This document shows, piece by piece, positions 2,922 through 42,235 of a stretch of DNA of 55,927 nt. This DNA comes from Sashavirus 536P12: the sequence record OZ035768.1; one strand, 5' to 3'. Both the position numbers and the translations under genes were made by a program. The notes beneath the pieces are model-generated. The model was not told the DNA's origin and searched no databases. It saw only the letters and a program-made list of their open reading frames with translations. Each line of letters begins with the position of its first letter. Within the stretch, counting starts at the first letter, position 1.

Positions 2922-4685
2922 ATGATTAAGTTTACTGGAAATATTCATAATTACCCGCGCTGGCGGGATGCTTACGCAAACGACGAACGTATCTGGCGAA
3001 AAGGTCATCCACGCCCGGATTACAAACAGTGTTACATTGACCGCATTAACCTGTTAAATCGTATGCGCATGGATCGGGTCATTGTCCCGGTGCTGAAAAA
3101 GTATTACGAAACAAACCCGGTAGCATTCATTCTCGACTGGGCGTTTACTTATGACCCGCGTAACGTCGGTACTGAATACCCGCCAAACATGCCTTTCTGC
3201 CTTTTCGAACGTCAGATCGACATGGTTCAGTTTGTTTACGAAGCGCTTGAAGACAAAGAAAAAGGGCTTTGGGAAAAATCGCGAGACTATGGTGCGACCT
3301 GGGTAGCCTGTGGTTTGTCCGTGTGGGCGTGGCTGTATCGTCCCGGTTCTTCAGTTGGCTGGGGATCACGTAAAGAGCAACTTGTTGATAAACTGGGCGA
3401 CCCGGATAGTATTTTTGAAAAGATTCGCCAGATTATCCGTGCATTACCACCGGAATTACGCCCTGTTGGTCTGCGTGAAAAAGACCATCTGGTTTACATG
3501 AAATGTATCAACCCTGAAAACGGTGCAACAATTACTGGCGAAGCTGGTGACAACATCGGTCGTGGTGGTCGTAAATCTGTCTATTTCTTGGATGAAGCGG
3601 CACACGTAGATCGTCCTGAACTGATTGAAGCGTCGTTGTCAGCTAACACCAACGTTCGTATCGACATCAGTTCAGTTAATGGCGTTGGTAATGTTTTTTA
3701 TCGTAATCGTAAAGCTGGTCTGGAATGGGAACCGGGTAAGAAATTACCCCGTGGTAAATTGCGTGTCATGGTTCTGGACTGGCGCGATCACCCGGCTAAA
3801 GACGACGAATGGTATAAGCGAGAAAAACAATCGTTCGCTGAAAAAGGTTTACAGCATATTTTCGCACAGGAAGTCGATCGCGACTATGCCGCTGCTGTTC
3901 AGGGTGTACTGATTAAAGCTGAATGGGTGCGCGCTGCTTTTGACGCGTTCCGTGATACAGAATGGCGCAAAGCTAACGACTTACTTACACCAACAGGTCA
4001 ACGTATCGCCGGACAGGATGCCGCAGACGGTGGTGAAGATGCAAGTGCATTGGTAATTGCTCACGGTGTATTCCTGACACATCTACAGCTTGACCACAGG
4101 GGCGCTGAACTGGCTGCACCAGGGATGTTGACGATGGCTAATATGCTGGGTGTTGATGAATACTGGTACGAAGTTAACGGTGTTGGTACAGGCGTTAAAG
4201 TAGCGGCAAATGACCGGAAAGATATTTTACGCTTCCGTGTGCGTCCGTGGTTACCGAATGGAAAAGTTGTGGATCCGGGTGGTGATATTATCGGTGGTAC
4301 GAAACCTGGTGACAAAGACCGTAAATCAAACAAAGATTATTTCTCAAATTATAAAGCACAGGCATCATGGGCGCTGCGTCTGCGTTGTCAGCGAATTTAT
4401 AAATGGTATGTGGAAGGTCAACCACAGGATCCAGACGAAATCATTCTGATTGATCCATCACTGGAAAACGCACAACGGTTAGAAGCTGAGTTAAGTCAGC
4501 CAACGTATACCAGTAACGGTGCCGGGAAGATTGTGATCGACAAGAAACCAAACGGAAGTAAGTCACCAAACTTTTTCGATGCTGCGGTTATTGCACTATC
4601 ACCAAAACGCACTGAATTTGTCGAAGAACCATTTACTGGTGGTGTGAATCCTGTTGGTACTCCTGAATACGGTGACATTTTTTAA
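2922..4685 (+). CDS. terminase large subunit (TerL)
   Basis: 587 aa; Walker A-like EKSRDYGATW, Walker B-like VYFLDEAAH, C-terminal nuclease-like region; size and position typical of TerL. Confidence 0.75.
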   Translation: MIKFTGNIHNYPRWRDAYANDERIWRKGHPRPDYKQCYIDRINLLNRMRMDRVIVPVLKKYYETNPVAFILDWAFTYDPRNVGTEYPPNMPFCLFERQIDMVQFVYEALEDKEKGLWEKSRDYGATWVACGLSVWAWLYRPGSSVGWGSRKEQLVDKLGDPDSIFEKIRQIIRALPPELRPVGLREKDHLVYMKCINPENGATITGEAGDNIGRGGRKSVYFLDEAAHVDRPELIEASLSANTNVRIDISSVNGVGNVFYRNRKAGLEWEPGKKLPRGKLRVMVLDWRDHPAKDDEWYKREKQSFAEKGLQHIFAQEVDRDYAAAVQGVLIKAEWVRAAFDAFRDTEWRKANDLLTPTGQRIAGQDAADGGEDASALVIAHGVFLTHLQLDHRGAELAAPGMLTMANMLGVDEYWYEVNGVGTGVKVAANDRKDILRFRVRPWLPNGKVVDPGGDIIGGTKPGDKDRKSNKDYFSNYKAQASWALRLRCQRIYKWYVEGQPQDPDEIILIDPSLENAQRLEAELSQPTYTSNGAGKIVIDKKPNGSKSPNFFDAAVIALSPKRTEFVEEPFTGGVNPVGTPEYGDIF

Positions 4686-4690
4686 ACAGT

Positions 4691-4724
4691 GTGGCGGGAT
4701 TATTCCCGCCCGTTTTCTTTTTTT
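4691..4724 (+). terminator. rho-independent terminator
   Basis: GGCGGGATTATTCCCGCC hairpin followed by a T-run immediately after the TerL stop. Confidence 0.7.
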
Positions 4725-4725
4725 A

Positions 4726-4760
4726 ATTCTTGACAAATTACATTATAAATGTTTGTAAAT
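4726..4760 (+). promoter_or_regulatory. promoter (partial copy of conserved element, + orientation)
   Basis: AATTCTTGACA with TTGACA at 4730-4735; -10 unclear (TGTAAAT near 4754-4760 or TATACT at 4787-4792); upstream of the strong AGGAG RBS of the gene at 4849. Confidence 0.4.
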
Positions 4761-4848
4761 TATCTGTTAGATTAATGTAACGCGTTTATACTCCTGTAGG
4801 TAACCGATCGGTTACAGTTAATTAACATTCTCTCACAGGAGTTTCAAC

Positions 4849-5526
4849 ATGTCTGACATGACTTTAGTTCCCACTGGCGGTTTCGGCGGTGAAGCTGGCG
4901 CGGCTGCACTTGGCGGTGGCATCGGTGGTCTTATCGGTTCCTGGTTCGGTAACGGTTGGGGTGGCGGTGGTAACTTTGGTGGTCCTGTAGAAGTTCAAGC
5001 CTCTGTAGATACCAACGCTATTCTGCAAGCCATCAATAACGGTGCTCTTCAGACCATTCAGGGTCAGAATGGTACAAACCTGACCGTTGAACGCGCTGCA
5101 GCTTCCACTTTTAACGGTATCACTCAACAGAACACACAAAACCTGCTGGCATCTGTACAAGGTTTTGCAGGTCTGAACACTCAGATTCAGCAGGGTACGA
5201 ACACTGTGACCAATGCGATCTGTGCATCTGAAACTGCGGCACTGACTCGTTCTTTCCAGGCACAGTTAGCGGCTGAGAAGTGTTGCTGCGAAACCAACCT
5301 GAATATCGAACGTCAGGCAGAAGCAACTCGTGCACTGATCCGTGATCAGTTCGCACAGTCTCAGGCTGTTCTGATTTGTGACCTGAAATCTCAGATTCAA
5401 ACCCGTGACTTCCAGTTGTCTCAATTGTCACAAACGTCTCAGTTGGCGTGCAAAATTAACCAGGTCGATCAGCTTATTAACTTCAAGCTGCCTACTCCGC
5501 AAACTCCACCGACTGGCTGCTGCTAA
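4849..5526 (+). CDS. Gly-rich / glycine-zipper N-terminus, Gln/Thr-rich, Cys-containing protein of unknown function
   Basis: 225 aa; N-terminal GGFGGEAGAAALGGGIGGLIGSWFGNGWGGGGNFGG, internal CCC, C-terminal GCC; strong SD AGGAG; first gene after TerL terminator. Confidence 0.6.
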   Translation: MSDMTLVPTGGFGGEAGAAALGGGIGGLIGSWFGNGWGGGGNFGGPVEVQASVDTNAILQAINNGALQTIQGQNGTNLTVERAAASTFNGITQQNTQNLLASVQGFAGLNTQIQQGTNTVTNAICASETAALTRSFQAQLAAEKCCCETNLNIERQAEATRALIRDQFAQSQAVLICDLKSQIQTRDFQLSQLSQTSQLACKINQVDQLINFKLPTPQTPPTGCC

Positions 5527-5576
5527 TTGGTTAACTAAGCGCCTCTGTACGGGGCGCTTTAACAGGAGATAAGAGT

Positions 5577-5936
5577 ATGCATTACAAACCGTATTACGTT
5601 ATCAAAAAAGACGATGATGACGATGAAGAGGAAGATGTAGAAATTCATCACCACCATCATTATCACCACGGACATCACCCGGACACGATGGGAGTATTTC
5701 ATCATGATAGCTCTGTTAGCGAACATGGTTCAGTTATGGCCCATGTTAAAGCACGTATGGATAACCCTCCTTCGACTTGGGCGTCGTACCACGATAAGCC
5801 CGGCGGGATGATGTCCATTGTTGAAATGGAATATCGCGAACTGATGGAAGAAAAAGCCGAAGGTTCGACGTCTGGTATTAAAAAAGAGCTAACAGATCTG
5901 GCTGCAGCCTGTATCAACGCGCTTAAAAAGATGTAA
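5577..5936 (+). CDS. histidine-rich acidic protein (putative metal-binding)
   Basis: 119 aa; DDDDDEEEDVEIHHHHHYHHGHHPD natural poly-His tract; good SD (AGGAGA). Confidence 0.6.
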   Translation: MHYKPYYVIKKDDDDDEEEDVEIHHHHHYHHGHHPDTMGVFHHDSSVSEHGSVMAHVKARMDNPPSTWASYHDKPGGMMSIVEMEYRELMEEKAEGSTSGIKKELTDLAAACINALKKM

Positions 5937-5952
5937 CTAACAGGAAACCGAC

Positions 5953-6456
5953 ATGCAGAATATTAACGCAGGTATGGGTGTCACCCAGTTTAACGGCATG
6001 AAACCGCGAAGCACTATTAACATTGGTGGTGTGGAGTGGTCATTACGTCGGGATGCCACTGACTCAACAACAATGTTTCCTCATCCGAAGGTAAGCTGGC
6101 TTAACGCTGGTTGTGAACCGATGGGTGATGGTCGTTTTCATTACTGTTGGATTTTGGGTGTGATTCCCCCGACACCGGGGACAATCGAACGACCTGTTAA
6201 TGTGATGTATGTTGGTTTCCATCAATTTAAAATTAATATTGCACCTAATTCAATTAGTCAGGCTGATTTGGACAGGATGCATGTTTATGTCAGCGACACT
6301 TCACATTTTGCTGGTGAATTTGTCAGTAAGTTTTTAGGTACAGAACCTGAACCTGTGGAAACTCGTGAAAATATCAGCCCGTGGCCCCCGATGAATGATC
6401 CTCGTGAGCAACCAAAAGTAGCCAAAAATAAGGTAAACGAAGATGACGAAGAATGA
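5953..6456 (+). CDS. hypothetical protein
   Basis: 167-aa ORF in the same operon; acidic C-terminus. Confidence 0.5.
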   Translation: MQNINAGMGVTQFNGMKPRSTINIGGVEWSLRRDATDSTTMFPHPKVSWLNAGCEPMGDGRFHYCWILGVIPPTPGTIERPVNVMYVGFHQFKINIAPNSISQADLDRMHVYVSDTSHFAGEFVSKFLGTEPEPVETRENISPWPPMNDPREQPKVAKNKVNEDDEE

Positions 6457-30100: not shown

Positions 30101-30480
30101 TCGGTGATCGTTATGATATTGACAAGTGGAATTGCACACACGAGGTTGCGCAATGGTACGCTATAAACGGCTATCCCGGTGCAGTAGAACCTGTATCATC
30201 TTTACAATGGGATATTCGTTTTGTGCTATGGATGAGGCGACATTTTACACCTATTGAAAACACTGAACAGGGTGCTTTGGTAGTAATGCGTAATAAGTAC
30301 AGTGGCGGTTTACATGTTGGTGTGTGGGATAAGGGAATGGTTCATCATTGTTTCCAACCACTAACAGGAGGTCCCGGTCAGACTATACGATCCCCGTTGT
30401 GTCTGTTAAAATCAAACCATGTAATTCTAAAATATGGTAGATATAATGGCACGGATCCTTTACTTCAAACCAGGTCATGA
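30097..30480 (+). CDS. tail tip protein with NlpC/P60-type peptidase motifs (gpK-like)
   Basis: 127 aa; Cys (NCTHEVAQWY) and His (GGLHVGVW...MVHH) spacing consistent with an NlpC/P60 catalytic core. Confidence 0.5.
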   Translation: MIGDRYDIDKWNCTHEVAQWYAINGYPGAVEPVSSLQWDIRFVLWMRRHFTPIENTEQGALVVMRNKYSGGLHVGVWDKGMVHHCFQPLTGGPGQTIRSPLCLLKSNHVILKYGRYNGTDPLLQTRS

Positions 30481-32998
30481 TGTAATTGATGAACAGGCTG
30501 AAAACCTTGCTGAATGGTTGCTCGCAACATGGCCTGTCGGATCTGTTCGTCCACGTGGCCTTAAACTCTATAAAAATGAGGTTACTCCAGAAAATGACAT
30601 AACTCACGCGTGGGTTGGTGATCCGTCTGTAGTGATGGACAATAGTGCTAATTATATCGTTGTGGAACTTCCTAAAGGTCCGGTTGCTGCATTTGTTCCG
30701 TATATCATAGCAGCTATAGTTGCTGTTGCCGCAACTATTATTTTAACACCTAATGCGGGGCTATCTGCATCACTTAAAAATACTCGTTCAGCTTCTTCAA
30801 ATAACGCATTGCAAGGCCGTACCAACGCACCACGACCCGGTGAACGTATAGCAGATATCCGTGGTTATGTTCGTGCATACCCAGATCTTCTGATGGATTA
30901 TAAAATTTTCATTGACCGCACTGAATACGAAGTTCAGTTTCTATGTTTAGGCGCTGGTGAATATAAAATCGAAGATGTAAGAGATGGTATTACACCTGCG
31001 TTAAATATCAGTGGCGAACAGCTTGATTTTTATAAAAACAGTGCGGCACCTGGTTATGGTTCGCCATATATGAATATTGGCGGTGGTATCGATCTGTCTA
31101 AATTTCCAATAATGACAGCTAAATCATCAAATGAAGCCGATGGTTCTGAAGTCAAACCGCCTAATTATGCAGATATTAGTAACGCCAAATTTAAAATATT
31201 TAGCACGGGTGAAATTAATACCAGTATCACATCAGGAAGTGGTAACACTACTATTGATTGGACTGAACGTGCATCTACTGGTCAGGTTCGTCTTTCTGGT
31301 TTTTATAGTTTTACACCAAACACATTACCACTTAATACGTATACAAGAAATGATTTAAGCGGTTTATATGATGTTATATCATCCGGTGATGATTTTTTAA
31401 TACTTGACACTACTGGTCATGATGGGTGGGATGAATTATCATCTTCAGGTCAAGATGCGTATACACAGGCTTATTTGCGAAAAGACGGTTACTGGGAATT
31501 TGAAGCCACTGAAGGAAGCGAAAGTTTTTTATACAAATTTTCACCTGTTGTTGAAAGTACCGCACCTTATCAGGTTGGACCATACTTGTTAGATAGTGCA
31601 GATCGTGTAATGGTGAATTTGTATGCACAGTCTGGCGTATATAAAACAGATGGTGATATTTATCCTTTCACCTGTGATTTTCTTGTCATACTATCAGACC
31701 CCAATCATGTTCACGGGGATATTAGCCATTCTATGTCTGTTGTTGGTCGATATGATGAGGCTGTAGGTGCTACATTAATCGTAGATAATCCATTTAACGG
31801 ACCCGTTAATGTATCTGTTCGTCGTACTACTAATACAGATAAAGATTTCGAAGGTACTGTTGTAGATACGGTAAAATGGCGAGATTTATATGCTATAACT
31901 AATGTTCCCGCTCGTTCATATGGTGATGTAACATTAATTCATACAGTGACTAAAGCAACTAACGCAGCTTTAAAACAGAAAGAACGAAAACTAAACATGC
32001 TTGCAACCCGAGTGTATAATGGTGTTGCAAGTAGAAATTTTGCAGATGTAATAATGTCGATGCATACAGATCCATTTTTCGGTCGTCGAACTGTTGAAAG
32101 TATTGATGTTGACGCATTATATGACGTACAACAGCAGATATTAGATTATTTTGGTGATGGTCGTGCAATTGAAGTTGGTTATACATTTGACAGTAATAAC
32201 ACCACATATGAAGAAGCATTACAGGTTATTTGTGGACCAGTTAATATAATGCCCTATCAGGTCGGTAGTGTATTGTATTTCTGGCCTGAATTACCACAAG
32301 ACCAGTCCGCAATGCAGTTTGGTCATGCGTTTAAAGTACCAGATACTGATAAACGTACCCGGAGTTTTGCATCTAATAAAGATTTCACGGGTGTACAGGT
32401 GAAATATTTTGATCACGATGCTAAATCTTATTTATATATAACCAAAGGCGAAGAAACAAACCTTAATAAGATAGATCTTGTTGCGTGTCAGTCACGATAC
32501 CTTGCAAATATCCGTGCTAATCGTGAGATGAATAAATTACGTTATCAACGTATTACTCACGAGTGCACAGCGCTTAGTATCGGGTTACAGGCTACCCCGG
32601 GTATGCGTGTGGATATGATTGATAACACCCGTATGAAACAACACGAAGGTGTCGTAGTTGATGTTGACGGTTTAACGCTTATTCTTAGTGATCCTGTTAC
32701 GTTCACTACGGGTAATATATACAGCATAACGTTAACACACCGACTGGGAACACTTGAAAATATTCCTGTAACTGCCGGGGATGATGAATTTTCAGTGGTA
32801 ATGGCTTATCAACCGTCTGAAGAAATTTACACGGGGTGGTTACGTGACCGTACCGCATATGTTATCCGTGCTGATGACGAACGTAGCAAATTAGCGATGC
32901 TTGTTCAGAGTATGGAACCGTCAGGAAGAGATAATAACTATCAGGTAGGTTTAACGTGCATCAATTACGATGCACGTTATTATCAGGATGATTTATAA
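30434..32998 (+). CDS. tail tip / host-specificity protein candidate (gpI/gpJ-like region)
   Basis: 854 aa following the gpK-like gene; start uncertain (overlaps upstream gene by 47 nt). Confidence 0.5.
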   Translation: MVDIMARILYFKPGHDVIDEQAENLAEWLLATWPVGSVRPRGLKLYKNEVTPENDITHAWVGDPSVVMDNSANYIVVELPKGPVAAFVPYIIAAIVAVAATIILTPNAGLSASLKNTRSASSNNALQGRTNAPRPGERIADIRGYVRAYPDLLMDYKIFIDRTEYEVQFLCLGAGEYKIEDVRDGITPALNISGEQLDFYKNSAAPGYGSPYMNIGGGIDLSKFPIMTAKSSNEADGSEVKPPNYADISNAKFKIFSTGEINTSITSGSGNTTIDWTERASTGQVRLSGFYSFTPNTLPLNTYTRNDLSGLYDVISSGDDFLILDTTGHDGWDELSSSGQDAYTQAYLRKDGYWEFEATEGSESFLYKFSPVVESTAPYQVGPYLLDSADRVMVNLYAQSGVYKTDGDIYPFTCDFLVILSDPNHVHGDISHSMSVVGRYDEAVGATLIVDNPFNGPVNVSVRRTTNTDKDFEGTVVDTVKWRDLYAITNVPARSYGDVTLIHTVTKATNAALKQKERKLNMLATRVYNGVASRNFADVIMSMHTDPFFGRRTVESIDVDALYDVQQQILDYFGDGRAIEVGYTFDSNNTTYEEALQVICGPVNIMPYQVGSVLYFWPELPQDQSAMQFGHAFKVPDTDKRTRSFASNKDFTGVQVKYFDHDAKSYLYITKGEETNLNKIDLVACQSRYLANIRANREMNKLRYQRITHECTALSIGLQATPGMRVDMIDNTRMKQHEGVVVDVDGLTLILSDPVTFTTGNIYSITLTHRLGTLENIPVTAGDDEFSVVMAYQPSEEIYTGWLRDRTAYVIRADDERSKLAMLVQSMEPSGRDNNYQVGLTCINYDARYYQDDL

Positions 32999-33024
32999 CA
33001 AGTTATCTAAGCCGTTGGCTTGTT

Positions 33025-33395
33025 TCCGTTGCAACATCTGAGCAGTGGAAAGATAAGCAGACAGGAGAAAAGAAAGAACAGACTGAATGGCATCCGTGGT
33101 CATCTTCGGAAAGCTTGCTGAGGTTGCAGGAGAATACCTTAGCAAAGGCTCGCAGGTTTACATCGAAGGACAACTTCGCACTCGTAAGTGGACTGACAGC
33201 AATGGCGTGGACAAATACACCACTGAGATTGTCATTCCGCAGATGGGTGGCTTTATGCAGATGCTTGGCGGTAAACGTGATGATTCTGGTCAGCAACAAC
33301 AACGCCAGCAACGACAACAACAGCAACCACCAAAACAACAAAGCTCACAAGGAGGAAATGAGTCTCCTATGGACTTCGAAGATATTCCGTTTTGA
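33025..33395 (+). pseudogene. ssb: single-stranded DNA-binding protein (ssb) remnant: N-terminally truncated and frameshifted
   Basis: frame 1 encodes [21 protein letters not shown], then a 1-nt frame change near 33092 continues as [34 protein letters not shown]...MDFEDIPF (ORF 33087..33395); collinear with E. coli SSB residues ~36-178 as recalled; first ~35 residues absent; no SD before ATG 33087. Confidence 0.6.
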
Positions 33396-33406
33396 TGATA
33401 AAACTA

Positions 33407-33431
33407 GCCCCGCCGAAGCGGGGTTTATTTT
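33407..33431 (+). terminator. rho-independent terminator
   Basis: CCCCGCCGAAGCGGGG hairpin followed by TTTATTTT. Confidence 0.6.
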
Positions 33432-33537
33432 ACGGTGACACAGATGCTACCGTATACTCAACAGTAAGCCATGATCCGCATTCATTTTACTTTTATTATA
33501 CACAGTAGTTTAAAGTTCGTGCAGATCAAGGTCCCTG

Positions 33538-36081
33538 TTACTGTGAAACTAATTTCTCCTCAATGATGCTCAGTCTCTCTGACAGACCACGCATCACGAA
33601 TCTGTCAAATTCCTGATCGCGTAATTGCCATACAGAACCAGACTCACGTACTAATTGCAGTTCGCCAGTTTCAACGACTTCGCCATCTACCTCAATGGTT
33701 ACCGGGGTATATTCATCATCCCACTCATCAAAACAGATAAATCCATAGCTCCGCCAGTCTAGACCTTCCTCTTCCAGAACAGCTAACACTGCTTGAACCG
33801 TAGTCCCTGCATGCAAACGCTTACTGTCATCATCAAGCCACGTCCAGAATCCAAACATTTTCGAGATGCGCATTGCTGCATTGAGTTCGGCCTGATTGAA
33901 CTCCCGGATAGGGTCTTTAAGTGTGGCATCTGAAGTTGACTGTGTTCCGCCAGCGAAGAAACCAACATTGTAGCGATTGCTTGCCCTGCCAAGGTTCTGC
34001 GTGGCGTCATTGACTGGATGCTGGGTTCCGTCAGATTTGAATACATACAGGGGGGTTAATGCACCCGAGGATGTGTTTCTTTGCGAGACGGTGAGATCGC
34101 CTATTGATGATGCCGTGACATCAGCACCGGAAAGATTGGCGTTACGAATAGAAAGGATGCTTTGCGGGCCAGCATTCCTCGGCAGCATAGTACCATCTGG
34201 CTTGATTATTGTGCTCTCGCCGTTATTGATGTAATCTCCCGTTGTGTTACCAGTCACTTCTCCAGAGCCTTTAAGCACAATTTTTGCGTGAGTTACGTTA
34301 ACCCCATAGCGACCGTTGCTCGTTGAATTGGCATTGGCGGCAGATATTAAGCCATCGTAAACAGCAACCAGACCATCCGTGCCATTTTGTGTGGCAGTTG
34401 AGTTAGTGAAAATAACTGCACCGCTATTTGAAGCGGTTACACCAATTAGCCTGTTTAAATAGCTCTTCCCATTTTGCAGATTTAATGCACCTGGTCCGCG
34501 TGATTCACCACCATTGGTATAGTTACCGCACGCAATCCCCCCTGGTGCCCCCAAAAAACCATGATTAAAAGACCAGAACCCATTCAACCCATTGCCAGAG
34601 CAAACTGATCCGTTAGCCTGTATTGCGCCACCAATATCAGCAATAATCCCATCCTCACCATTCCCTGAGCAAAGCATAAATTTACCGCGTATATGAGCGC
34701 CTTCAGAATATACACCGCGCTTGCGGTTAGAGCATGAAGATATAAAGTTTGAAACCACACCAGATCTTTCTGAAGCCACGACCCCCTGTTCTCCGAACCC
34801 AACGATCGCCAGATCAGGCCCAATTGCTATACATCCTGACGCATCAAAAACCACGTTGGATGGGTCTTGGATGGCAACAGTTATATCTGGAGTGGCAAGG
34901 GAGAAGCCATGTGCCCCGATAGTGCCAGTGCCGGCCACAAGGTCATAATCACCAACAATTGCGACACCGTTTATTGTCTTAATGCACCCAGCACCTGCAG
35001 CCACAATCCCATCACATCCGGCATATCTCAGAATACTTTTTAGTATGACTACTGTTCCGCCTGTAATCGTTGACGTTGGTAATTCAGACAGGTGGCAGGT
35101 GTTTTTTACGGTAACATTTTTGCCAGACACGGCAGTCACAACCCATCCGCCACAATGGATGTGATATCCTCCTGTCCCCGTTATATCGTGACGAATCATC
35201 ACGATGTCGCCTACAGAAACGTTTGAAGCATCAGCCAGAGAGAGCGTAACTAGGTATGATTTGGGGATACCAGATACACCCACTAAGCCAGTTAGCGTAG
35301 TTGAATACGTAATACCAGAAATAGAAAGTTTATGAACATTTTGTGATCTGATTAGCGTCTTTTCTGATAGGTTAACAGTTCCAACAGGAAGATTGATGGT
35401 CAAAGAACCTCTAAACTCTGCTCGTGAAAGCAATTTCAGTACAGAAGGAACCTGCGACAAGGTTGGCGTGGCCGTATAATCGCCTGGAGGCACAATGATG
35501 GTGCCGCTTGTCGCCGCTACCGCCTTAATGATTGCTCCCGCAACATCACCTCCGGTCAGGTAATCTGCAATGCTTATCGACTCCAGCATTTTGTCGTGAA
35601 CGGTTCTGACGACCGAGTCGCCTGGCTGCTTAACTACAACCAATGCATCTCCAGCCCCATCATGAGGACTACCCAGAACAGCCGAGCCAACTCCCAGCCA
35701 TTTTCCGATCCCAACACCACCTGCCGTGTCAGGAGTGGAACCTGGTGGAACAATTTTTCCTGATGGCAGAAATGCGCCATCCCAGCGGTAATATTCGCCA
35801 GTTGCCTTATATCGCAGCACCTGATTAGATAATGTAAGTGTCGCACCATCTTCGAAGCTATCCATCGTTATATAGCCGACCCGAGATATAGCCTGATTAT
35901 ACAGGTTTTCTAAACCATCAAGTGTCTTGTTAGTAACTGATTCGCCACGGATTGTATCGGTTGCTTCCAGTGCAGGTTTACCGGTAGCGTCACGACTTTT
36001 TGCAACGTGTTCAATATGTAAAATCGCTTGTTTGCCTGTTTTCAAATCATCAGCACTGATATAATCGTTACAGTTAGCCAT
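33538..36081 (-). CDS. tailspike / tail fibre with beta-helix region and C-terminal intramolecular chaperone (peptidase S74-like) domain
   Basis: ORF 33538..36108 begins with TTG; likely start ATG 36081 with GGAGA SD; Gly/Asn/Ser-rich central region; C-terminal TSDATLKDPIREFNQAELNAA matches the autoproteolytic chaperone motif. Confidence 0.75.
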   Translation of the reverse strand: MANCNDYISADDLKTGKQAILHIEHVAKSRDATGKPALEATDTIRGESVTNKTLDGLENLYNQAISRVGYITMDSFEDGATLTLSNQVLRYKATGEYYRWDGAFLPSGKIVPPGSTPDTAGGVGIGKWLGVGSAVLGSPHDGAGDALVVVKQPGDSVVRTVHDKMLESISIADYLTGGDVAGAIIKAVAATSGTIIVPPGDYTATPTLSQVPSVLKLLSRAEFRGSLTINLPVGTVNLSEKTLIRSQNVHKLSISGITYSTTLTGLVGVSGIPKSYLVTLSLADASNVSVGDIVMIRHDITGTGGYHIHCGGWVVTAVSGKNVTVKNTCHLSELPTSTITGGTVVILKSILRYAGCDGIVAAGAGCIKTINGVAIVGDYDLVAGTGTIGAHGFSLATPDITVAIQDPSNVVFDASGCIAIGPDLAIVGFGEQGVVASERSGVVSNFISSCSNRKRGVYSEGAHIRGKFMLCSGNGEDGIIADIGGAIQANGSVCSGNGLNGFWSFNHGFLGAPGGIACGNYTNGGESRGPGALNLQNGKSYLNRLIGVTASNSGAVIFTNSTATQNGTDGLVAVYDGLISAANANSTSNGRYGVNVTHAKIVLKGSGEVTGNTTGDYINNGESTIIKPDGTMLPRNAGPQSILSIRNANLSGADVTASSIGDLTVSQRNTSSGALTPLYVFKSDGTQHPVNDATQNLGRASNRYNVGFFAGGTQSTSDATLKDPIREFNQAELNAAMRISKMFGFWTWLDDDSKRLHAGTTVQAVLAVLEEEGLDWRSYGFICFDEWDDEYTPVTIEVDGEVVETGELQLVRESGSVWQLRDQEFDRFVMRGLSERLSIIEEKLVSQ

Positions 36082-36107
36082 CTTTAAGTCTCCAGGAGTG
36101 TAGAACA

Positions 36108-36428
36108 ATGTCTGATAACCCAGTGTTAAGGTATTGGCCTATAATAGCATTTGTTGCCACGGGGTTGGTAGGTTACGGAGTAACTCAAAACCAAATCAAT
36201 TCTAATGAAAAAGATATTACTGATGCAAAAACCTATGCGCATGAGGCGCTTAATCTGGCAAAGCGAGTGGAATCCCGAGTGGATGTTCACGACATCAAAA
36301 TCGAATATCAGGCCACACAGAACGCTGAAATCCTCACTAGTGTTAAAGAGCTAACACAGTCAACAAATGACCTGAAAGTTGTTATTGAAGGTTTGAAAGC
36401 GGAACAACGTAAAACCGGGAGTAAGTGA
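36108..36428 (+). CDS. membrane protein with N-terminal TM helix and coiled-coil (holin/antiholin-like lysis protein candidate)
   Basis: 106 aa; YWPIIAFVATGLVGYGV TM; immediately upstream of the endolysin gene. Confidence 0.4.
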   Translation: MSDNPVLRYWPIIAFVATGLVGYGVTQNQINSNEKDITDAKTYAHEALNLAKRVESRVDVHDIKIEYQATQNAEILTSVKELTQSTNDLKVVIEGLKAEQRKTGSK

Positions 36429-41431: not shown

Positions 41432-42235
41432 TCAGTAACCGTTACCGTTGAGAAAATTCGGGGCCGGGGTGGTCATTACCATATAACCGTTAGCGATCAA
41501 TTGTTCATCGTTCCAACCTTGCGCAATAAACTGTTCGTAAGTAGCACCACCTGCTTTTTCAGTCATTACCTTCACAGGTGCTGCCGCTGGTGTAGGCGCT
41601 GCTACAGGTGCTGCCGCTGGTGTAGGCGCTGGTGTTACGCCGATCGGACGTGCACCTTCAGGCATTGCAGGAGCAGCACCGAACACAGAGGCAGGAGCCG
41701 GACCAGAAATAATTTCTTCACCTGCATAAAGCAATTGCGCCATTTCCATGTTGATATATACACCAGCCTGATTACCTGTACGACCGTTTGCAACAGATGA
41801 CCCGCTGATACGGTAGTAATAACCTTTTTTCGCCAGATTTTTATCAATAACTGGCTGGTACGCTGCGTTATAAACAGGACACGCGTCAATAGCCACGTTG
41901 CGTGAGAAACCAATTACCCAGTGACCAGCATAACCAGTTTTACTCGCATGTTTCGGATCGTCACCGTTAATAATTTTCCATGCGAAAGTGGGTTGTTGTG
42001 GTTCGCCGTTCACATAGTGTGAGTTAGCCGCTCGCATGATGGCCTGGAACACCGCACCAAGTTCACCTTGTTCTTCCCACCAGTTCGCAGCTGTTTTAGG
42101 AAATGCCAGACCAACCCACCAGTTATGTTTTTCAGGTGCTAACGGTTTATTTTCGTGGTCATGAGTGTTGATATCGAAAAAAGAACCGCCAACCAGACGA
42201 CCAACCGGAGTTACAAAAGATTCTTTCTGTGCCAT
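41432..42235 (-). CDS. ssDNA-binding protein candidate (gp2.5 / DUF2815-like)
   Basis: 267 aa; N-terminal FVTPVGRLVGGSFFD...KHNWWVGLAFPK pattern, Pro/Ala-rich linker, aromatic C-terminus; sits in the replication module. Confidence 0.35.
   Translation of the reverse strand: MAQKESFVTPVGRLVGGSFFDINTHDHENKPLAPEKHNWWVGLAFPKTAANWWEEQGELGAVFQAIMRAANSHYVNGEPQQPTFAWKIINGDDPKHASKTGYAGHWVIGFSRNVAIDACPVYNAAYQPVIDKNLAKKGYYYRISGSSVANGRTGNQAGVYINMEMAQLLYAGEEIISGPAPASVFGAAPAMPEGARPIGVTPAPTPAAAPVAAPTPAAAPVKVMTEKAGGATYEQFIAQGWNDEQLIANGYMVMTTPAPNFLNGNGY
41575..41636. repeat. 30-bp tandem repeat x2 inside CDS (encodes PAPTPAAAPV linker)
   Basis: CAGGTGCTGCCGCTGGTGTAGGCGCTG(C/G)T repeated directly. Confidence 0.8.

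What the first reader, a model, noticed from the sequence alone, without database searches (positions are those of the whole stretch)
33003..33431. Truncated, frameshifted E. coli-like ssb remnant that keeps the C-terminal DIPF interaction tail
Two adjacent frames together encode a protein collinear with host-type SSB from about residue 36 to the end (…MDFEDIPF), with a Q-rich linker. The first ~35 residues of the OB fold are missing and a 1-nt frame change near 33092 separates the halves. It sits between the tail-tip gene and the opposite-strand tailspike, a recombination hotspot. It is either a decaying acquired host gene or, if the ATG at 33087 is used, a 102-aa fragment carrying the SSB C-terminal tip that could titrate host SSB-interacting proteins.
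Basis: partly seen in the sequence, partly recalled or inferred. Interest (0 to 1): 0.6.

Follow-up and report, generated by a model that had tools for sequence, protein, structure and literature searches.

The report
Dead ssb fragment beside swapped tailspike
This is a broken leftover of another phage's single-strand-DNA-binding gene, carried in when a tailspike (host-recognition) module was swapped between two phage groups; the protein is almost certainly non-functional, but the DNA still serves as a crossover site for further tailspike swaps.

Summary
Window 33023-33395 (+) matches a bacterial-type SSB from residue 33 to the ...DIPF end. One base is missing at 33094/95.

- **Source:** the donor was a phage, not the host. 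Identity is 87-95% to ssb of Skatevirus-like small siphoviruses, against 76% over 142 nt to E. coli ssb.
- **Donor layout:** in those phages ssb lies tail-to-tail with the tailspike gene.
- **Window phage:** it is 9NA-like. Six relatives have no ssb piece, and their tail-tip gene abuts the tailspike.
- **One event:** twelve copies in 9NA-like phages share one identical illegitimate junction. At least six different terminator or tailspike variants lie behind it.
- **Crossovers:** breakpoints fall inside the fragment. L015 vs IME207 has 24 differences in 261 nt, then 0 in 398. L017 vs L024 has 0 in about 290 nt, then 21 in 110.
- **Decay:** lesions differ by lineage (frameshifts, a nonsense codon, in-frame deletions). 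Recent changes are mostly non-synonymous.
- **102-aa ORF:** it has no Shine-Dalgarno, covers half an OB fold, and is unique to this genome. The phage has its own Gp2.5-like SSB.

Verdict: a pseudogene left as a recombination scar, reused as a homology arm. Modest interest.

The parts
30434..32998 (+). Tail-tip (J-like) gene. Its last codon was altered by the junction: it ends ...YYQDDL* here, versus ...YYQDD* in 9NA-like phages without the ssb piece.
   Evidence: Annotated as tail tip/tail protein in relatives.
32994..33022 (+). Illegitimate junction plus a 29-nt filler (TATAACAAGTTATCTAAGCCGTTGGCTTG) of unknown origin that forms a small hairpin. All but the last three bases (GATGATT|TATAACAAGTTATCTAAGCCGTTGGC) are identical in 11 of the 12 remnant copies; Bas82 has four substitutions in the filler. 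The TTG-to-TTT boundary and T-run length differ between lineages.
   Evidence: Hairpin dG about -7 to -9 kcal/mol.
33023..33094 (+). 5' piece of the ssb remnant (codons about 33-56: [23 protein letters not shown]), read in frame 33022 mod 3. No in-frame start codon precedes it. The upstream TTG (33020) is out of frame because the T-run is one base short.
33094..33095 (+). Site of the 1-nt (G) deletion that shifts the frame.
33095..33395 (+). 3' piece of the ssb remnant (codons about 58-162): the rest of the OB fold, the Q-rich linker with a 15-nt deletion at 33311/12, and the acidic tip MDFEDIPF with a 3-nt deletion at 33383/84.
33087..33395 (+). Mechanical 102-aa ORF created by the frameshift joining an out-of-frame ATG to the ssb frame. 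It has no Shine-Dalgarno and is judged not to be a functional gene.
33406..33425 (.). Bidirectional intrinsic terminator (GCCCCGCCGAAGCGGGGT) imported together with ssb. It now ends both the late tail operon and the convergent tailspike gene.
   Evidence: dG -16.6 and -14.8 kcal/mol. The same hairpin follows ssb in ZCEC08, ASO78B, KFS-SE2, Seszw_1 and IME207.
33538..35728 (-). Variable (receptor-binding) part of the tailspike gene: the exchanged cassette. Here it is about 90% aa identical to tail fibre proteins of Justusliebigvirus/Phapecoctavirus myoviruses.
35729..35877 (-). Second homology arm: a tailspike 5'-proximal segment sharing 78-87% nt identity with tailspike genes of Skatevirus-like phages.
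   Evidence: Protein level: 60% identity to ZCEC08 tailspike aa 42-126.
35878..36081 (-). 9NA-type N-terminal anchor of the tailspike. The likely true start is ATG 36081 (MANCNDY...), as annotated in relatives.
   Evidence: PF18668 Tail_spike_N.
41435..42235 (-). The phage's own Gp2.5-like ssDNA-binding/annealing protein. It is context, not part of the remnant: it shows that a bacterial-type SSB is not needed.

Best explanation
The region is a non-functional, 5'-truncated and frameshifted ssb pseudogene.

**How it got there.** It was a passenger when an ancestor of this 9NA-like (Nonanavirus/Sashavirus) phage took a tailspike cassette from a Skatevirus-like small siphovirus. In those phages ssb and the tailspike gene are convergent neighbours that share one bidirectional terminator. 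One crossover was homologous, in the conserved 5'-proximal part of the tailspike gene. The other was a single illegitimate join, just after the tail-tip gene on one side and inside ssb at codon about 33 on the other.

**What it does now.** The fragment makes no working SSB. The phage replicates with its own Gp2.5-like protein. The roughly 400 bp are still 85-95% identical to ssb of co-infecting Skatevirus-like phages. Together with the tailspike 5' arm, they bracket the variable receptor-binding cassette, so homologous recombination keeps replacing that cassette, with left crossovers inside the fragment. The imported terminator probably ends both convergent transcripts.

**Shown:**
- homology to phage ssb
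- truncation
- a single shared junction
- absence of the fragment from six relatives
- different lesions in different lineages
- breakpoints inside the fragment in relatives

**Inferred:**
- the direction and order of the original event
- lack of expression
- that the window's own copy has been used as a crossover site
For: 1. **Phage type.** The window is a 9NA-like phage: 92% to Sashavirus BDX09P1, about 91-92% to PJ16 and Bas82, and 79% to 9NA.
2. **Ancestral layout.** In PJ16, Sergei, AVIO78A, PDP46, Sasha and 9NA the tail-tip gene ends YYQDD* and meets the opposite-strand tailspike directly. There is no ssb.
3. **One origin.** Twelve remnant copies share the same junction and the same genomic context. 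They are the window, Bas82, BDX09P1, two IMG/VR contigs, one metagenome contig and six Logan/ENA contigs.
4. **Donor layout.** ZCEC08, ASO78B, Bas81, Seszw_1, KFS-SE2 and IME207 all have recombinase, then ssb(+), terminator, and tailspike(-).
5. **Direct transfer.** IMG/VR contig L015 matches IME207 at 95.2% without interruption. The match runs from the same ssb start point through the terminator into about 580 nt of the tailspike 3' end.
6. **Crossovers inside the fragment.**
   - L015 vs IME207: 24 differences in the first 261 nt, then 0 in the next 398 (Fisher p=1e-10).
   - L017 vs L024: 0 differences in about 290 nt, then 21 in about 110 (p=4e-13).
   - Bas82's 3' end and terminator are Bas81-like, while its 5' part is most like other remnants.
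7. **Variable cassette.** At least six different downstream terminator or tailspike variants lie behind the one junction. Tailspike lengths range from 618 to 847 aa.
8. **Second arm.** Window 35729-35877 is 78-87% identical to Skatevirus-like tailspike genes.
9. **Decay.**
   - Lesions differ by lineage.
   - BDX09P1 differs from its 99%-identical sister L019 by four changes, all non-synonymous, including a nonsense codon.
   - Recent remnant pairs give N:S = 5:2, against 9:32 for singletons in intact alleles (Fisher p=0.017).
10. **Own SSB.** A Gp2.5-like protein is encoded at 41435-42235. No second bacterial-type ssb is present.
11. **Not from the host.** E. coli chromosomal ssb is only 76% identical over 142 nt.
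Against: - The ORF from the upstream TTG to ...DIPF is open in several relatives (Bas82, L014/15, L019-21, L022/23). In L017/L024 a -1 and a -2 deletion together restore that frame. This could hint at selection for an ORF.
- It can also be explained without selection. Repeated overwriting of the 3' part by intact alleles would keep the frame open, and a second indel restores the frame about one time in three by chance.
- Singleton N:S within the OB-fold part alone does not differ significantly between remnants and intact genes (9:13 vs 6:19, p=0.35).
- The sample of recent changes is small (7). Breakpoints were chosen after looking at the data.
- No sampled Skatevirus-like phage carries the window's present tailspike cassette, whose closest relatives are myovirus tail fibres. 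Use of the arm in this particular genome is therefore inferred from relatives.
- Expression was not measured.
Confidence: 0.8

Rival explanations
1. The 102-aa ORF (ATG 33087) is translated. Its product, half an OB fold plus the linker and the ...DFEDIPF tip, acts as a decoy that titrates host proteins which dock on the SSB C-terminus.
For: - The ORF is intact and ends in an SSB-like acidic tip with the terminal IPF.
- It probably lies on the late tail-operon transcript, because only a weak hairpin lies in the 29-nt filler (its T-run is broken in this window) and the strong terminator comes at 33406-33425.
- A gene caller called it in the NCBI record.
Against: - No Shine-Dalgarno: -0.9 kcal/mol, weaker than 93% of long-ORF starts and no better than a random ATG in the window.
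- The ATG is an out-of-frame triplet (GA-ATG-GC) present in nearly all ssb alleles (two read GAGTGG). It becomes an ORF start only through this genome's private 1-nt deletion.
- The product is a singleton cluster.
- It covers only Pfam SSB positions 51-101 of 104. From established knowledge of E. coli SSB, it therefore lacks W40, W54 and H55, as well as strand beta-1, which builds the oligomer.
- The tip is one residue short here, is cut off by a stop codon in BDX09P1, and varies in relatives (DDLIPF, DDSIPF, FSDDIPF).
Confidence: 0.04
2. The clade maintains an N-terminally truncated SSB protein of about 124-136 aa, started at the TTG 22 nt after the tail-tip stop, with some function. The window's copy is then a recent loss, or the frameshifts are sequencing errors.
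For: - The ORF is open from the TTG in Bas82, L014/15, L019-21 and L022/23, and is restored by compensating indels in L017/L024.
- The amino-acid sequence of the OB-fold part is well conserved among remnants.
- Translational coupling to the tail-tip gene is conceivable.
Against: - There is no Shine-Dalgarno before the TTG (-0.5 kcal/mol in the window).
- Codons 1-32 are missing in every copy.
- The N-terminal part tolerates 16 out-of-frame residues (L017/L024) and a 7-codon deletion in loop L23 (L022/23).
- BDX09P1 and the window are broken in different ways.
- Recent changes are mostly non-synonymous.
- Sequence conservation is explained by repeated copying from intact alleles.
- Two separate 1-nt deficits in the window, neither in a long homopolymer at 33094/95, would both have to be errors.
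Confidence: 0.1
3. The fragment was captured directly from the bacterial host chromosome or a plasmid, and is decaying.
For: It belongs to the bacterial-type SSB family and is 70% identical at protein level to E. coli SSB in the OB-fold part.
Against: - The best E. coli chromosomal match is 76% over 142 nt. The best match of any kind in 5,426 complete genomes is 74% over 58% of the query.
- Phage ssb genes match at 85-89% over the whole fragment, and at 95-100% in relatives.
- The terminator after ssb is shared with those phages as well.
Confidence: 0.02

Closest known systems
ssb genes of Skatevirus-like small siphoviruses (ZCEC08, ASO78B, Bas77-81, Seszw_1, KFS-SE2, Shuimuvirus IME207)
   Same: 85-89% nt identity over 33023-33395, and 94% to ZCEC08 over a 100-nt segment at about 33132-33231. 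The same downstream bidirectional terminator. The same tail-to-tail position next to a tailspike gene.
   Different: Those genes are full length (160-167 aa), have a start codon and sit in a recombination module (exonuclease, Erf/recombinase, ssb). The window's copy lacks codons 1-32, is frameshifted, has linker and tip deletions, and follows a tail-tip gene.
E. coli SSB (chromosomal ssb; Pfam PF00436)
   Same: The same protein family, with an OB fold, a disordered Gln/Pro-rich linker and an acidic C-terminal tip ending IPF.
   Different: Only 76% nt identity over 142 nt. It is not the source. The linker differs in composition and length.
Gene fragments at mosaic joints, and conserved flanking sequences in phage module exchange (modular theory of phage evolution; illegitimate recombination followed by homologous exchange). 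This is established knowledge, not re-read here.
   Same: A novel joint inside a gene left a fragment. Flanking homology shared between otherwise unrelated phages brackets an exchangeable cassette.
   Different: The left flank is a pseudogene of a replication protein rather than a functional neighbouring gene or a dedicated boundary sequence. Breakpoints inside it can be mapped at nucleotide resolution.
Horizontal exchange of tailspike receptor-binding modules behind a conserved N-terminal anchor. PMC11990801 describes this for O16-dependent Kagunavirus, Skatevirus and Nonanavirus phages and cites Pas et al. 2023.
   Same: The same locus directly downstream of the J-like tail-tip gene. The N-terminal anchor is conserved and the distal part is variable.
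   Different: That paper does not mention the ssb fragment: a search of its text for 'single-stranded DNA-binding' found only a reference-list entry. In Bas82 the fragment is simply annotated as 'single strand DNA binding protein'.

Membership tests
Functional bacterial-type SSB (PF00436) | Complete OB fold (Pfam profile positions 1-104) | tested here: not met
   The 102-aa ORF covers profile positions 51-101. The repaired fragment covers 29-101. Intact ZCEC08 SSB covers 1-101.
Functional bacterial-type SSB (PF00436) | Uninterrupted reading frame with a start codon and ribosome-binding site | tested here: not met
   1-nt deletion at 33094/95. No in-frame start for the 5' piece. SD duplex energy is -0.9 kcal/mol at ATG 33087 and -0.5 at TTG 33020, against a median of -5.6 for long ORFs.
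Functional bacterial-type SSB (PF00436) | Acidic C-terminal tip ending ...D-I-P-F | tested here: met
   MDFEDIPF* at 33369-33395, one residue shorter than the DFDDDIPF of intact alleles.
Functional bacterial-type SSB (PF00436) | Homotetramer formation and ssDNA binding | not testable with these tools
   Needs biochemistry. From established knowledge, the missing residues include strand beta-1, W40, W54 and H55 of E. coli SSB.
Pseudogene / gene remnant | Truncated relative to full-length homologues, at a junction with unrelated sequence | tested here: met
   Homology starts at codon about 33, 24 nt after the tail-tip stop. The junction is identical in 12 copies.
Pseudogene / gene remnant | Independent disabling lesions in different lineages | tested here: met
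   Window: -1, -1, -15 and -3 nt. L017/L024: -1 and -2. L022/23: -21. BDX09P1: TAG nonsense.
Pseudogene / gene remnant | Relaxed constraint (N:S near the neutral expectation) | tested here: inconclusive
   Recent pairs give N:S 5:2, against 9:32 in intact alleles (p=0.017). Only 7 changes are involved, and singletons in the OB-fold part alone give p=0.35. Recombination with intact alleles confounds the test.
Pseudogene / gene remnant | No protein product | not testable with these tools
   Needs proteomics or ribosome profiling.
Homology arm of an exchangeable tailspike cassette | Both flanks shared at nucleotide level between the two phage groups, with a variable segment between them | tested here: met
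   Left arm 33023-33432 is 85-95% identical. Right arm 35729-35877 is 78-87% identical. At least six cassette variants lie between them.
Homology arm of an exchangeable tailspike cassette | Recombination breakpoints that map inside the arm | tested here: met
   Met in relatives. L015/IME207: 24 differences in 261 nt, then 0 in 398. L017/L024: 0 in about 290 nt, then 21 in 110.
Homology arm of an exchangeable tailspike cassette | Breakpoint inside the arm in this window's own copy | tested here: inconclusive
   A 100-nt segment at about 33132-33231 is 94% ZCEC08-like, against 85-87% to other remnants. No sampled donor gives a clean breakpoint.
SSB C-terminus mimic / decoy | Tip conserved and expressed across the carriers | tested here: not met
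   BDX09P1 has a stop before the tip. The tip varies between copies. No SD. The 102-aa form is a singleton.

The most novel reading that the evidence does not exclude
The dead ssb fragment is not only a scar. It is kept in this lineage of 9NA-like phages because it works as a 'landing pad'. About 400 bp of homology, paired with the conserved tailspike 5' segment, gives these phages recombinational access to the large tailspike repertoire of Skatevirus-like phages. Lineages that keep it would switch host serotype more often, so a pseudogene would be retained by second-order selection for host-range evolvability. Use of the fragment as a crossover site is shown in relatives. Selection for keeping it is not shown.
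Probability: 0.2. Interest if true: 0.6.

Novelty: new member of a known kind. Interest (0 to 1): 0.3.

Why it matters
**Annotation.** Databases label this fragment 'single strand DNA binding protein' (Bas82), or call it as a gene (this genome's 102-aa ORF). It should be marked as a pseudogene.

**Phage evolution.** This is an unusually clean, nucleotide-resolution example of how receptor-binding modules move between unrelated siphovirus groups. There was one illegitimate event, followed by repeated homologous exchanges that used the leftover of a neighbouring gene as a homology arm.

**Phage engineering and host-range prediction.** The two arms, the ssb fragment and the tailspike 5' segment, mark natural cassette boundaries. 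Co-occurring Skatevirus-like phages emerge as the likely tailspike donors for 9NA-like phages.

It does not reveal a new protein function.

Tried and rejected
- **Second bacterial-type ssb in the window.** tblastn found none. The phage uses a Gp2.5-like protein instead.
- **Host origin.** A search of 5,426 complete E. coli genomes gave at best 74-77% identity over a third to a half of the fragment.
- **Donor of the window's present tailspike among Skatevirus-like phages.** Not found. The closest relatives are myovirus tail fibres at about 90% aa identity.
- **Origin of the 29-nt filler.** A scan of IMG/VR with the filler alone returned only the two 9NA-like contigs already known. Its origin remains unknown.
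- **RNA family in 32800-33700.** Nothing approaches a gathering score: the best hits are 17 bits against thresholds of 45 and 114.
- **Promoter for the 102-aa ORF.** No sigma-70-like site lies upstream within the fragment. The count in the region is no higher than in shuffled sequence.
- **Antisense 112-aa ORF (33003-33341, minus strand).** Rejected. It is the Leu-rich reverse complement of the Gln-rich linker, and the indels that differ between copies break it.
- **Programmed frameshift.** Rejected. The upstream piece has no start codon, and the shift is a private deletion.
- **Singleton N:S test on all remnants.** Only weakly informative, because misalignment around the window's linker deletion and import of changes from unsampled intact alleles both confound it. 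Closely related remnant pairs were used instead.
- **Literature.** No paper was found that describes this fragment or a phage SSB-tip decoy.
- **Structure prediction.** Not run. A confident model of a partial OB fold would not show whether the fragment is stable or expressed.
Full report
**1. What is in the sequence**

Window 33023-33395 (+) is collinear with a bacterial-type SSB from residue 33 to the C-terminal ...DIPF.
- tblastn with the 162-aa SSB of phage ZCEC08 gives two hits in adjacent frames. Residues 33-56 map to 33022-33093 (96% identity). Residues 49-162 map to 33066-33392 (80% identity, E=2e-42).
- Pfam SSB (PF00436) matches the 102-aa ORF at positions 51-101 of 104. It matches the conceptually repaired fragment at 29-101, and an intact homologue at 1-101.
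- The frame change is one missing G between 33094 and 33095. The window reads CATC-CGTGG; the 10 other copies aligned read CATCG..., and none of the 17 other copies shows a frame break there.

Three more lesions are private to this genome:
- The T-run at 33022/23 is one base short, so the upstream TTG is out of frame.
- 15 nt are missing from the Gln-rich linker at 33311/12.
- 3 nt are missing from the acidic tip at 33383/84, giving DFEDIPF instead of DFDDDIPF.

**2. What phage this is, and what normally sits here**

The window is a 9NA-like siphovirus. Identity is 92% to Sashavirus BDX09P1, about 91-92% to PJ16 and KarinMuster_Bas82, 89-90% to Sergei, Solent and Sasha, and 79% to 9NA. The exact 102-aa product is on record from an NCBI contig of 55,927 bp, so the window appears to be a whole genome record.

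In PJ16, Sergei, AVIO78A, PDP46, Sasha and 9NA the tail-tip gene ends ...YYQDD*. It meets the opposite-strand tailspike or tail fibre gene directly, with between a 4-nt overlap and 91 nt separating them. No ssb sequence is present. The ssb piece is therefore an insertion relative to the ancestral layout of the group.

**3. Where the piece came from**

- The best nucleotide matches to the ssb fragment itself, outside other remnant-bearing 9NA-like phages, are ssb genes of small siphoviruses of about 45-48 kb. These are classified as, or near, Skatevirus or Shuimuvirus: ZCEC08, ASO78B, BS5, KFS-SE2, Akira, LPST10, Bas77-81 and IME207. Identity is 85-89% over essentially the whole fragment, starting at window 33023.
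- In every one of those examined, the layout is exonuclease, recombinase, ssb(+), bidirectional terminator, tailspike(-), J-like tail protein(-). The 'ssb facing a tailspike' arrangement is native to them.
- E. coli chromosomal ssb matches at only 76% over 142 nt. Nothing in 5,426 complete E. coli genomes covers 80% of the fragment.
- The 'acquired host gene' reading is therefore not supported. The donor was another phage.

**4. One illegitimate event, many later exchanges**

Eleven other copies of the fragment turned up, all in 9NA-like context (tail-tip gene of 843 aa, the fragment, then the opposite-strand tailspike, holin and endolysin):
- Bas82 and BDX09P1
- two IMG/VR contigs, L014 and L015
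- one metagenome contig, L017
- six Logan/ENA contigs, L019-L024

All twelve copies share the same junction: GATGATT|TATAACAAGTTATCT...GGCTTG, followed by ssb codon about 33. The tail-tip protein is extended by one residue, YYQDDL*. Eleven copies share the identical filler; Bas82 has four substitutions within it. Independent origin of such a joint is implausible, so the truncation happened once.

Behind this single junction lie at least six different terminator or downstream sequences. Tailspikes range from 618 to 847 aa.

The fragment itself is mosaic:
- **L015 vs IME207.** The match is 95.2% and uninterrupted, from the ssb start point through the terminator into about 580 nt of the tailspike 3' end. 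The differences are 24 in the first 261 nt, then none in the next 398 nt (Fisher p=1e-10).
- **L017 vs L024.** They are identical over the first ~290 nt, including both of their frameshift lesions. They then differ at 21 of the last ~110 nt (p=4e-13).
- **Bas82.** Its 5' 100 nt are closest to other remnants (94-95%). Its 3' end and terminator are Bas81-like (91-92%, against about 50% for all others downstream).

These breakpoints were located after inspecting the data, so the p-values are optimistic. The contrasts are nonetheless extreme. They show that the fragment is repeatedly used as the left site of homologous crossovers with intact ssb genes of Skatevirus-like phages, and that the downstream tailspike cassette is replaced in the process.

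The right-hand arm is the 5'-proximal part of the tailspike gene:
- Window 35729-35877 is 78-87% identical to Skatevirus-like tailspike genes.
- At protein level, window tailspike residues 58-145 are 60% identical to ZCEC08 residues 42-126.

The BASEL paper places the tailspikes of Skatevirus and Nonanavirus phages at the same locus after the J-like gene, and stresses frequent horizontal exchange. It does not mention the ssb fragment (PMC11990801).

**5. Is anything made from it?**

For the window's copy the answer is almost certainly no.
- The 5' piece has no in-frame start codon.
- The 102-aa ORF starts at an ATG that is an out-of-frame triplet in nearly all ssb alleles (two have GAGTGG instead). 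It becomes an ORF start only because of this genome's private deletion.
- Its upstream region has no Shine-Dalgarno. The duplex energy with the anti-SD is -0.9 kcal/mol. That is weaker than 93% of long-ORF starts in the window (median -5.6) and no better than a typical random ATG.
- No promoter-like site lies inside the fragment.
- From established knowledge of E. coli SSB, the product would lack strand beta-1, W40, W54 and H55. That is half of the OB fold.
- The phage has its own Gp2.5-like ssDNA-binding/annealing protein next to its DNA polymerase: 41435-42235(-), with its first 199 residues identical to Bas82 gp67.

Across the clade, the lesions differ by lineage:

| Lineage | Lesion |
|---|---|
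| Window | two frameshifts and two in-frame deletions |
| L017/L024 | -1 and -2 nt, leaving 16 out-of-frame residues |
| L022/23 | 7-codon deletion in loop L23 |
| BDX09P1 | TAG stop before the tip |

- BDX09P1 differs from its 99%-identical sister L019 at four sites. All four are non-synonymous (A36T, T37K, G69R, Q146*).
- Adding L014/L015, recent changes give N:S = 5:2. That is compatible with neutrality (about 3:1) and differs from the 9:32 of singletons in intact alleles (p=0.017).

Some caveats apply:
- The numbers are small.
- A singleton test restricted to the OB-fold part is not significant.
- The ORF from the upstream TTG is open in several relatives and is restored by compensating indels in L017/L024.

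I therefore leave about 10% for a maintained truncated protein in the clade.

**6. Mechanism, committed**

- **Step 1 (inferred).** A 9NA-like ancestor co-infecting with a Skatevirus-like phage acquired that phage's tailspike distal part. One crossover was homologous, in the shared tailspike 5' segment. The other was illegitimate, between the end of the tail-tip gene and the interior of ssb. The 3' two-thirds of ssb and the bidirectional terminator came along as passengers.
- **Step 2 (shown in relatives).** The passenger stayed 85-95% identical to ssb of the same donor group. Since then it has served as the left homology arm for further cassette replacements and for gene-conversion patches.
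- **Step 3 (shown).** Without a start codon and with a redundant function, it accumulates lesions. Its 3' part is periodically refreshed from intact alleles.
- **Step 4 (inferred).** The imported terminator (33406-33425; dG about -15 to -17 kcal/mol on either strand) now ends both the late tail operon and the convergent tailspike transcript.

In this window the present cassette is about 90% aa identical to tail fibres of Justusliebigvirus/Phapecoctavirus myoviruses. No sampled Skatevirus-like phage carries it. The last exchange in this lineage therefore cannot be reconstructed.

**7. Comparison with known things, and novelty**

The fragment fails membership as a functional SSB: incomplete OB fold, broken frame, no start. 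It retains the family's C-terminal tip. It meets the criteria of a pseudogene or gene remnant.

As a phenomenon it belongs to the known kind 'gene fragment at a mosaic joint, with flanking homology that promotes module exchange'. Two things are particular here:
- A dead replication gene serves as the arm for tailspike exchange between two siphovirus groups.
- The breakpoints are resolved to the nucleotide.

I found no description of it in the papers searched. Public records annotate it as an SSB protein or call it as a gene.

I rate it a new member of a known kind, with interest about 0.3. The most novel reading not excluded is that the pseudogene is retained by selection for host-range evolvability, as a 'landing pad'. 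I give that about 0.2 probability.

Noticed in passing
window 41435-42235 (-): The Gp2.5-like ssDNA-binding/annealing protein has a tandem Ala/Pro-rich decapeptide repeat (PAAAPVAAPT-type) before its C-terminal domain. The window has about 2 units (267 aa) and Bas82 has about 10 (343 aa). The flanks are 98-100% identical, so linker length varies sharply between close relatives.
   Followed up: partly
window 33541-35553 (-): The distal about 670 aa of the tailspike is 89-90% aa identical (87% nt) to 'tail fiber' proteins of large myoviruses (Justusliebigvirus VEcB/alia, Phapecoctavirus 536P1). This indicates receptor-binding module sharing across morphotypes.
   Followed up: partly
L017 about 1190-1215 and L024 about 3400-3425 (terminator after the ssb remnant): Two closely related contigs carry the same terminator stem, but the 4-nt loop is reverse-complemented: CCCCGC-CGAA-GCGGGG versus CCCCGC-TTCG-GCGGGG. 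Identical sequence resumes downstream. This looks like a hairpin-loop inversion or a short conversion patch.
   Followed up: no
window 32994-33022: The 29-nt filler between the tail-tip stop and the ssb homology has no match outside remnant-bearing 9NA-like phages. It folds into a small hairpin. In most relatives a T-run (TTTTTTG) follows the hairpin, resembling a weak intrinsic terminator. In the window the T-run is interrupted (TTTCCG).
   Followed up: partly
window 36081-36108 (-): The mechanical ORF list starts the tailspike at TTG 36108 (856 aa). Relatives are annotated from the ATG at 36081 (MANCNDYISADDLK..., 847 aa), which is the likely true start.
   Followed up: partly
L006 (AVIO78A) 2961-5027 and L010 (ASO78B) 3921-5957: A 9NA-like phage and a Skatevirus-like phage isolated on the same E. 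coli O78 strain are both annotated with tail fibres similar to the C-terminus of the phage FEC14 fibre. This is another case of the two groups sharing receptor-binding modules, here in a 9NA-like phage without the ssb fragment.
   Followed up: no
L003 (ZCEC08) 2404-2904: In ZCEC08 an HNH endonuclease gene sits immediately upstream of ssb and abuts it, and the N-terminal 30 residues of its SSB differ from the other alleles (MSSIGINKCIILGRVG... versus MARGVNKVIIVGTLG...). A homing endonuclease next to ssb could promote local recombination.
   Followed up: no
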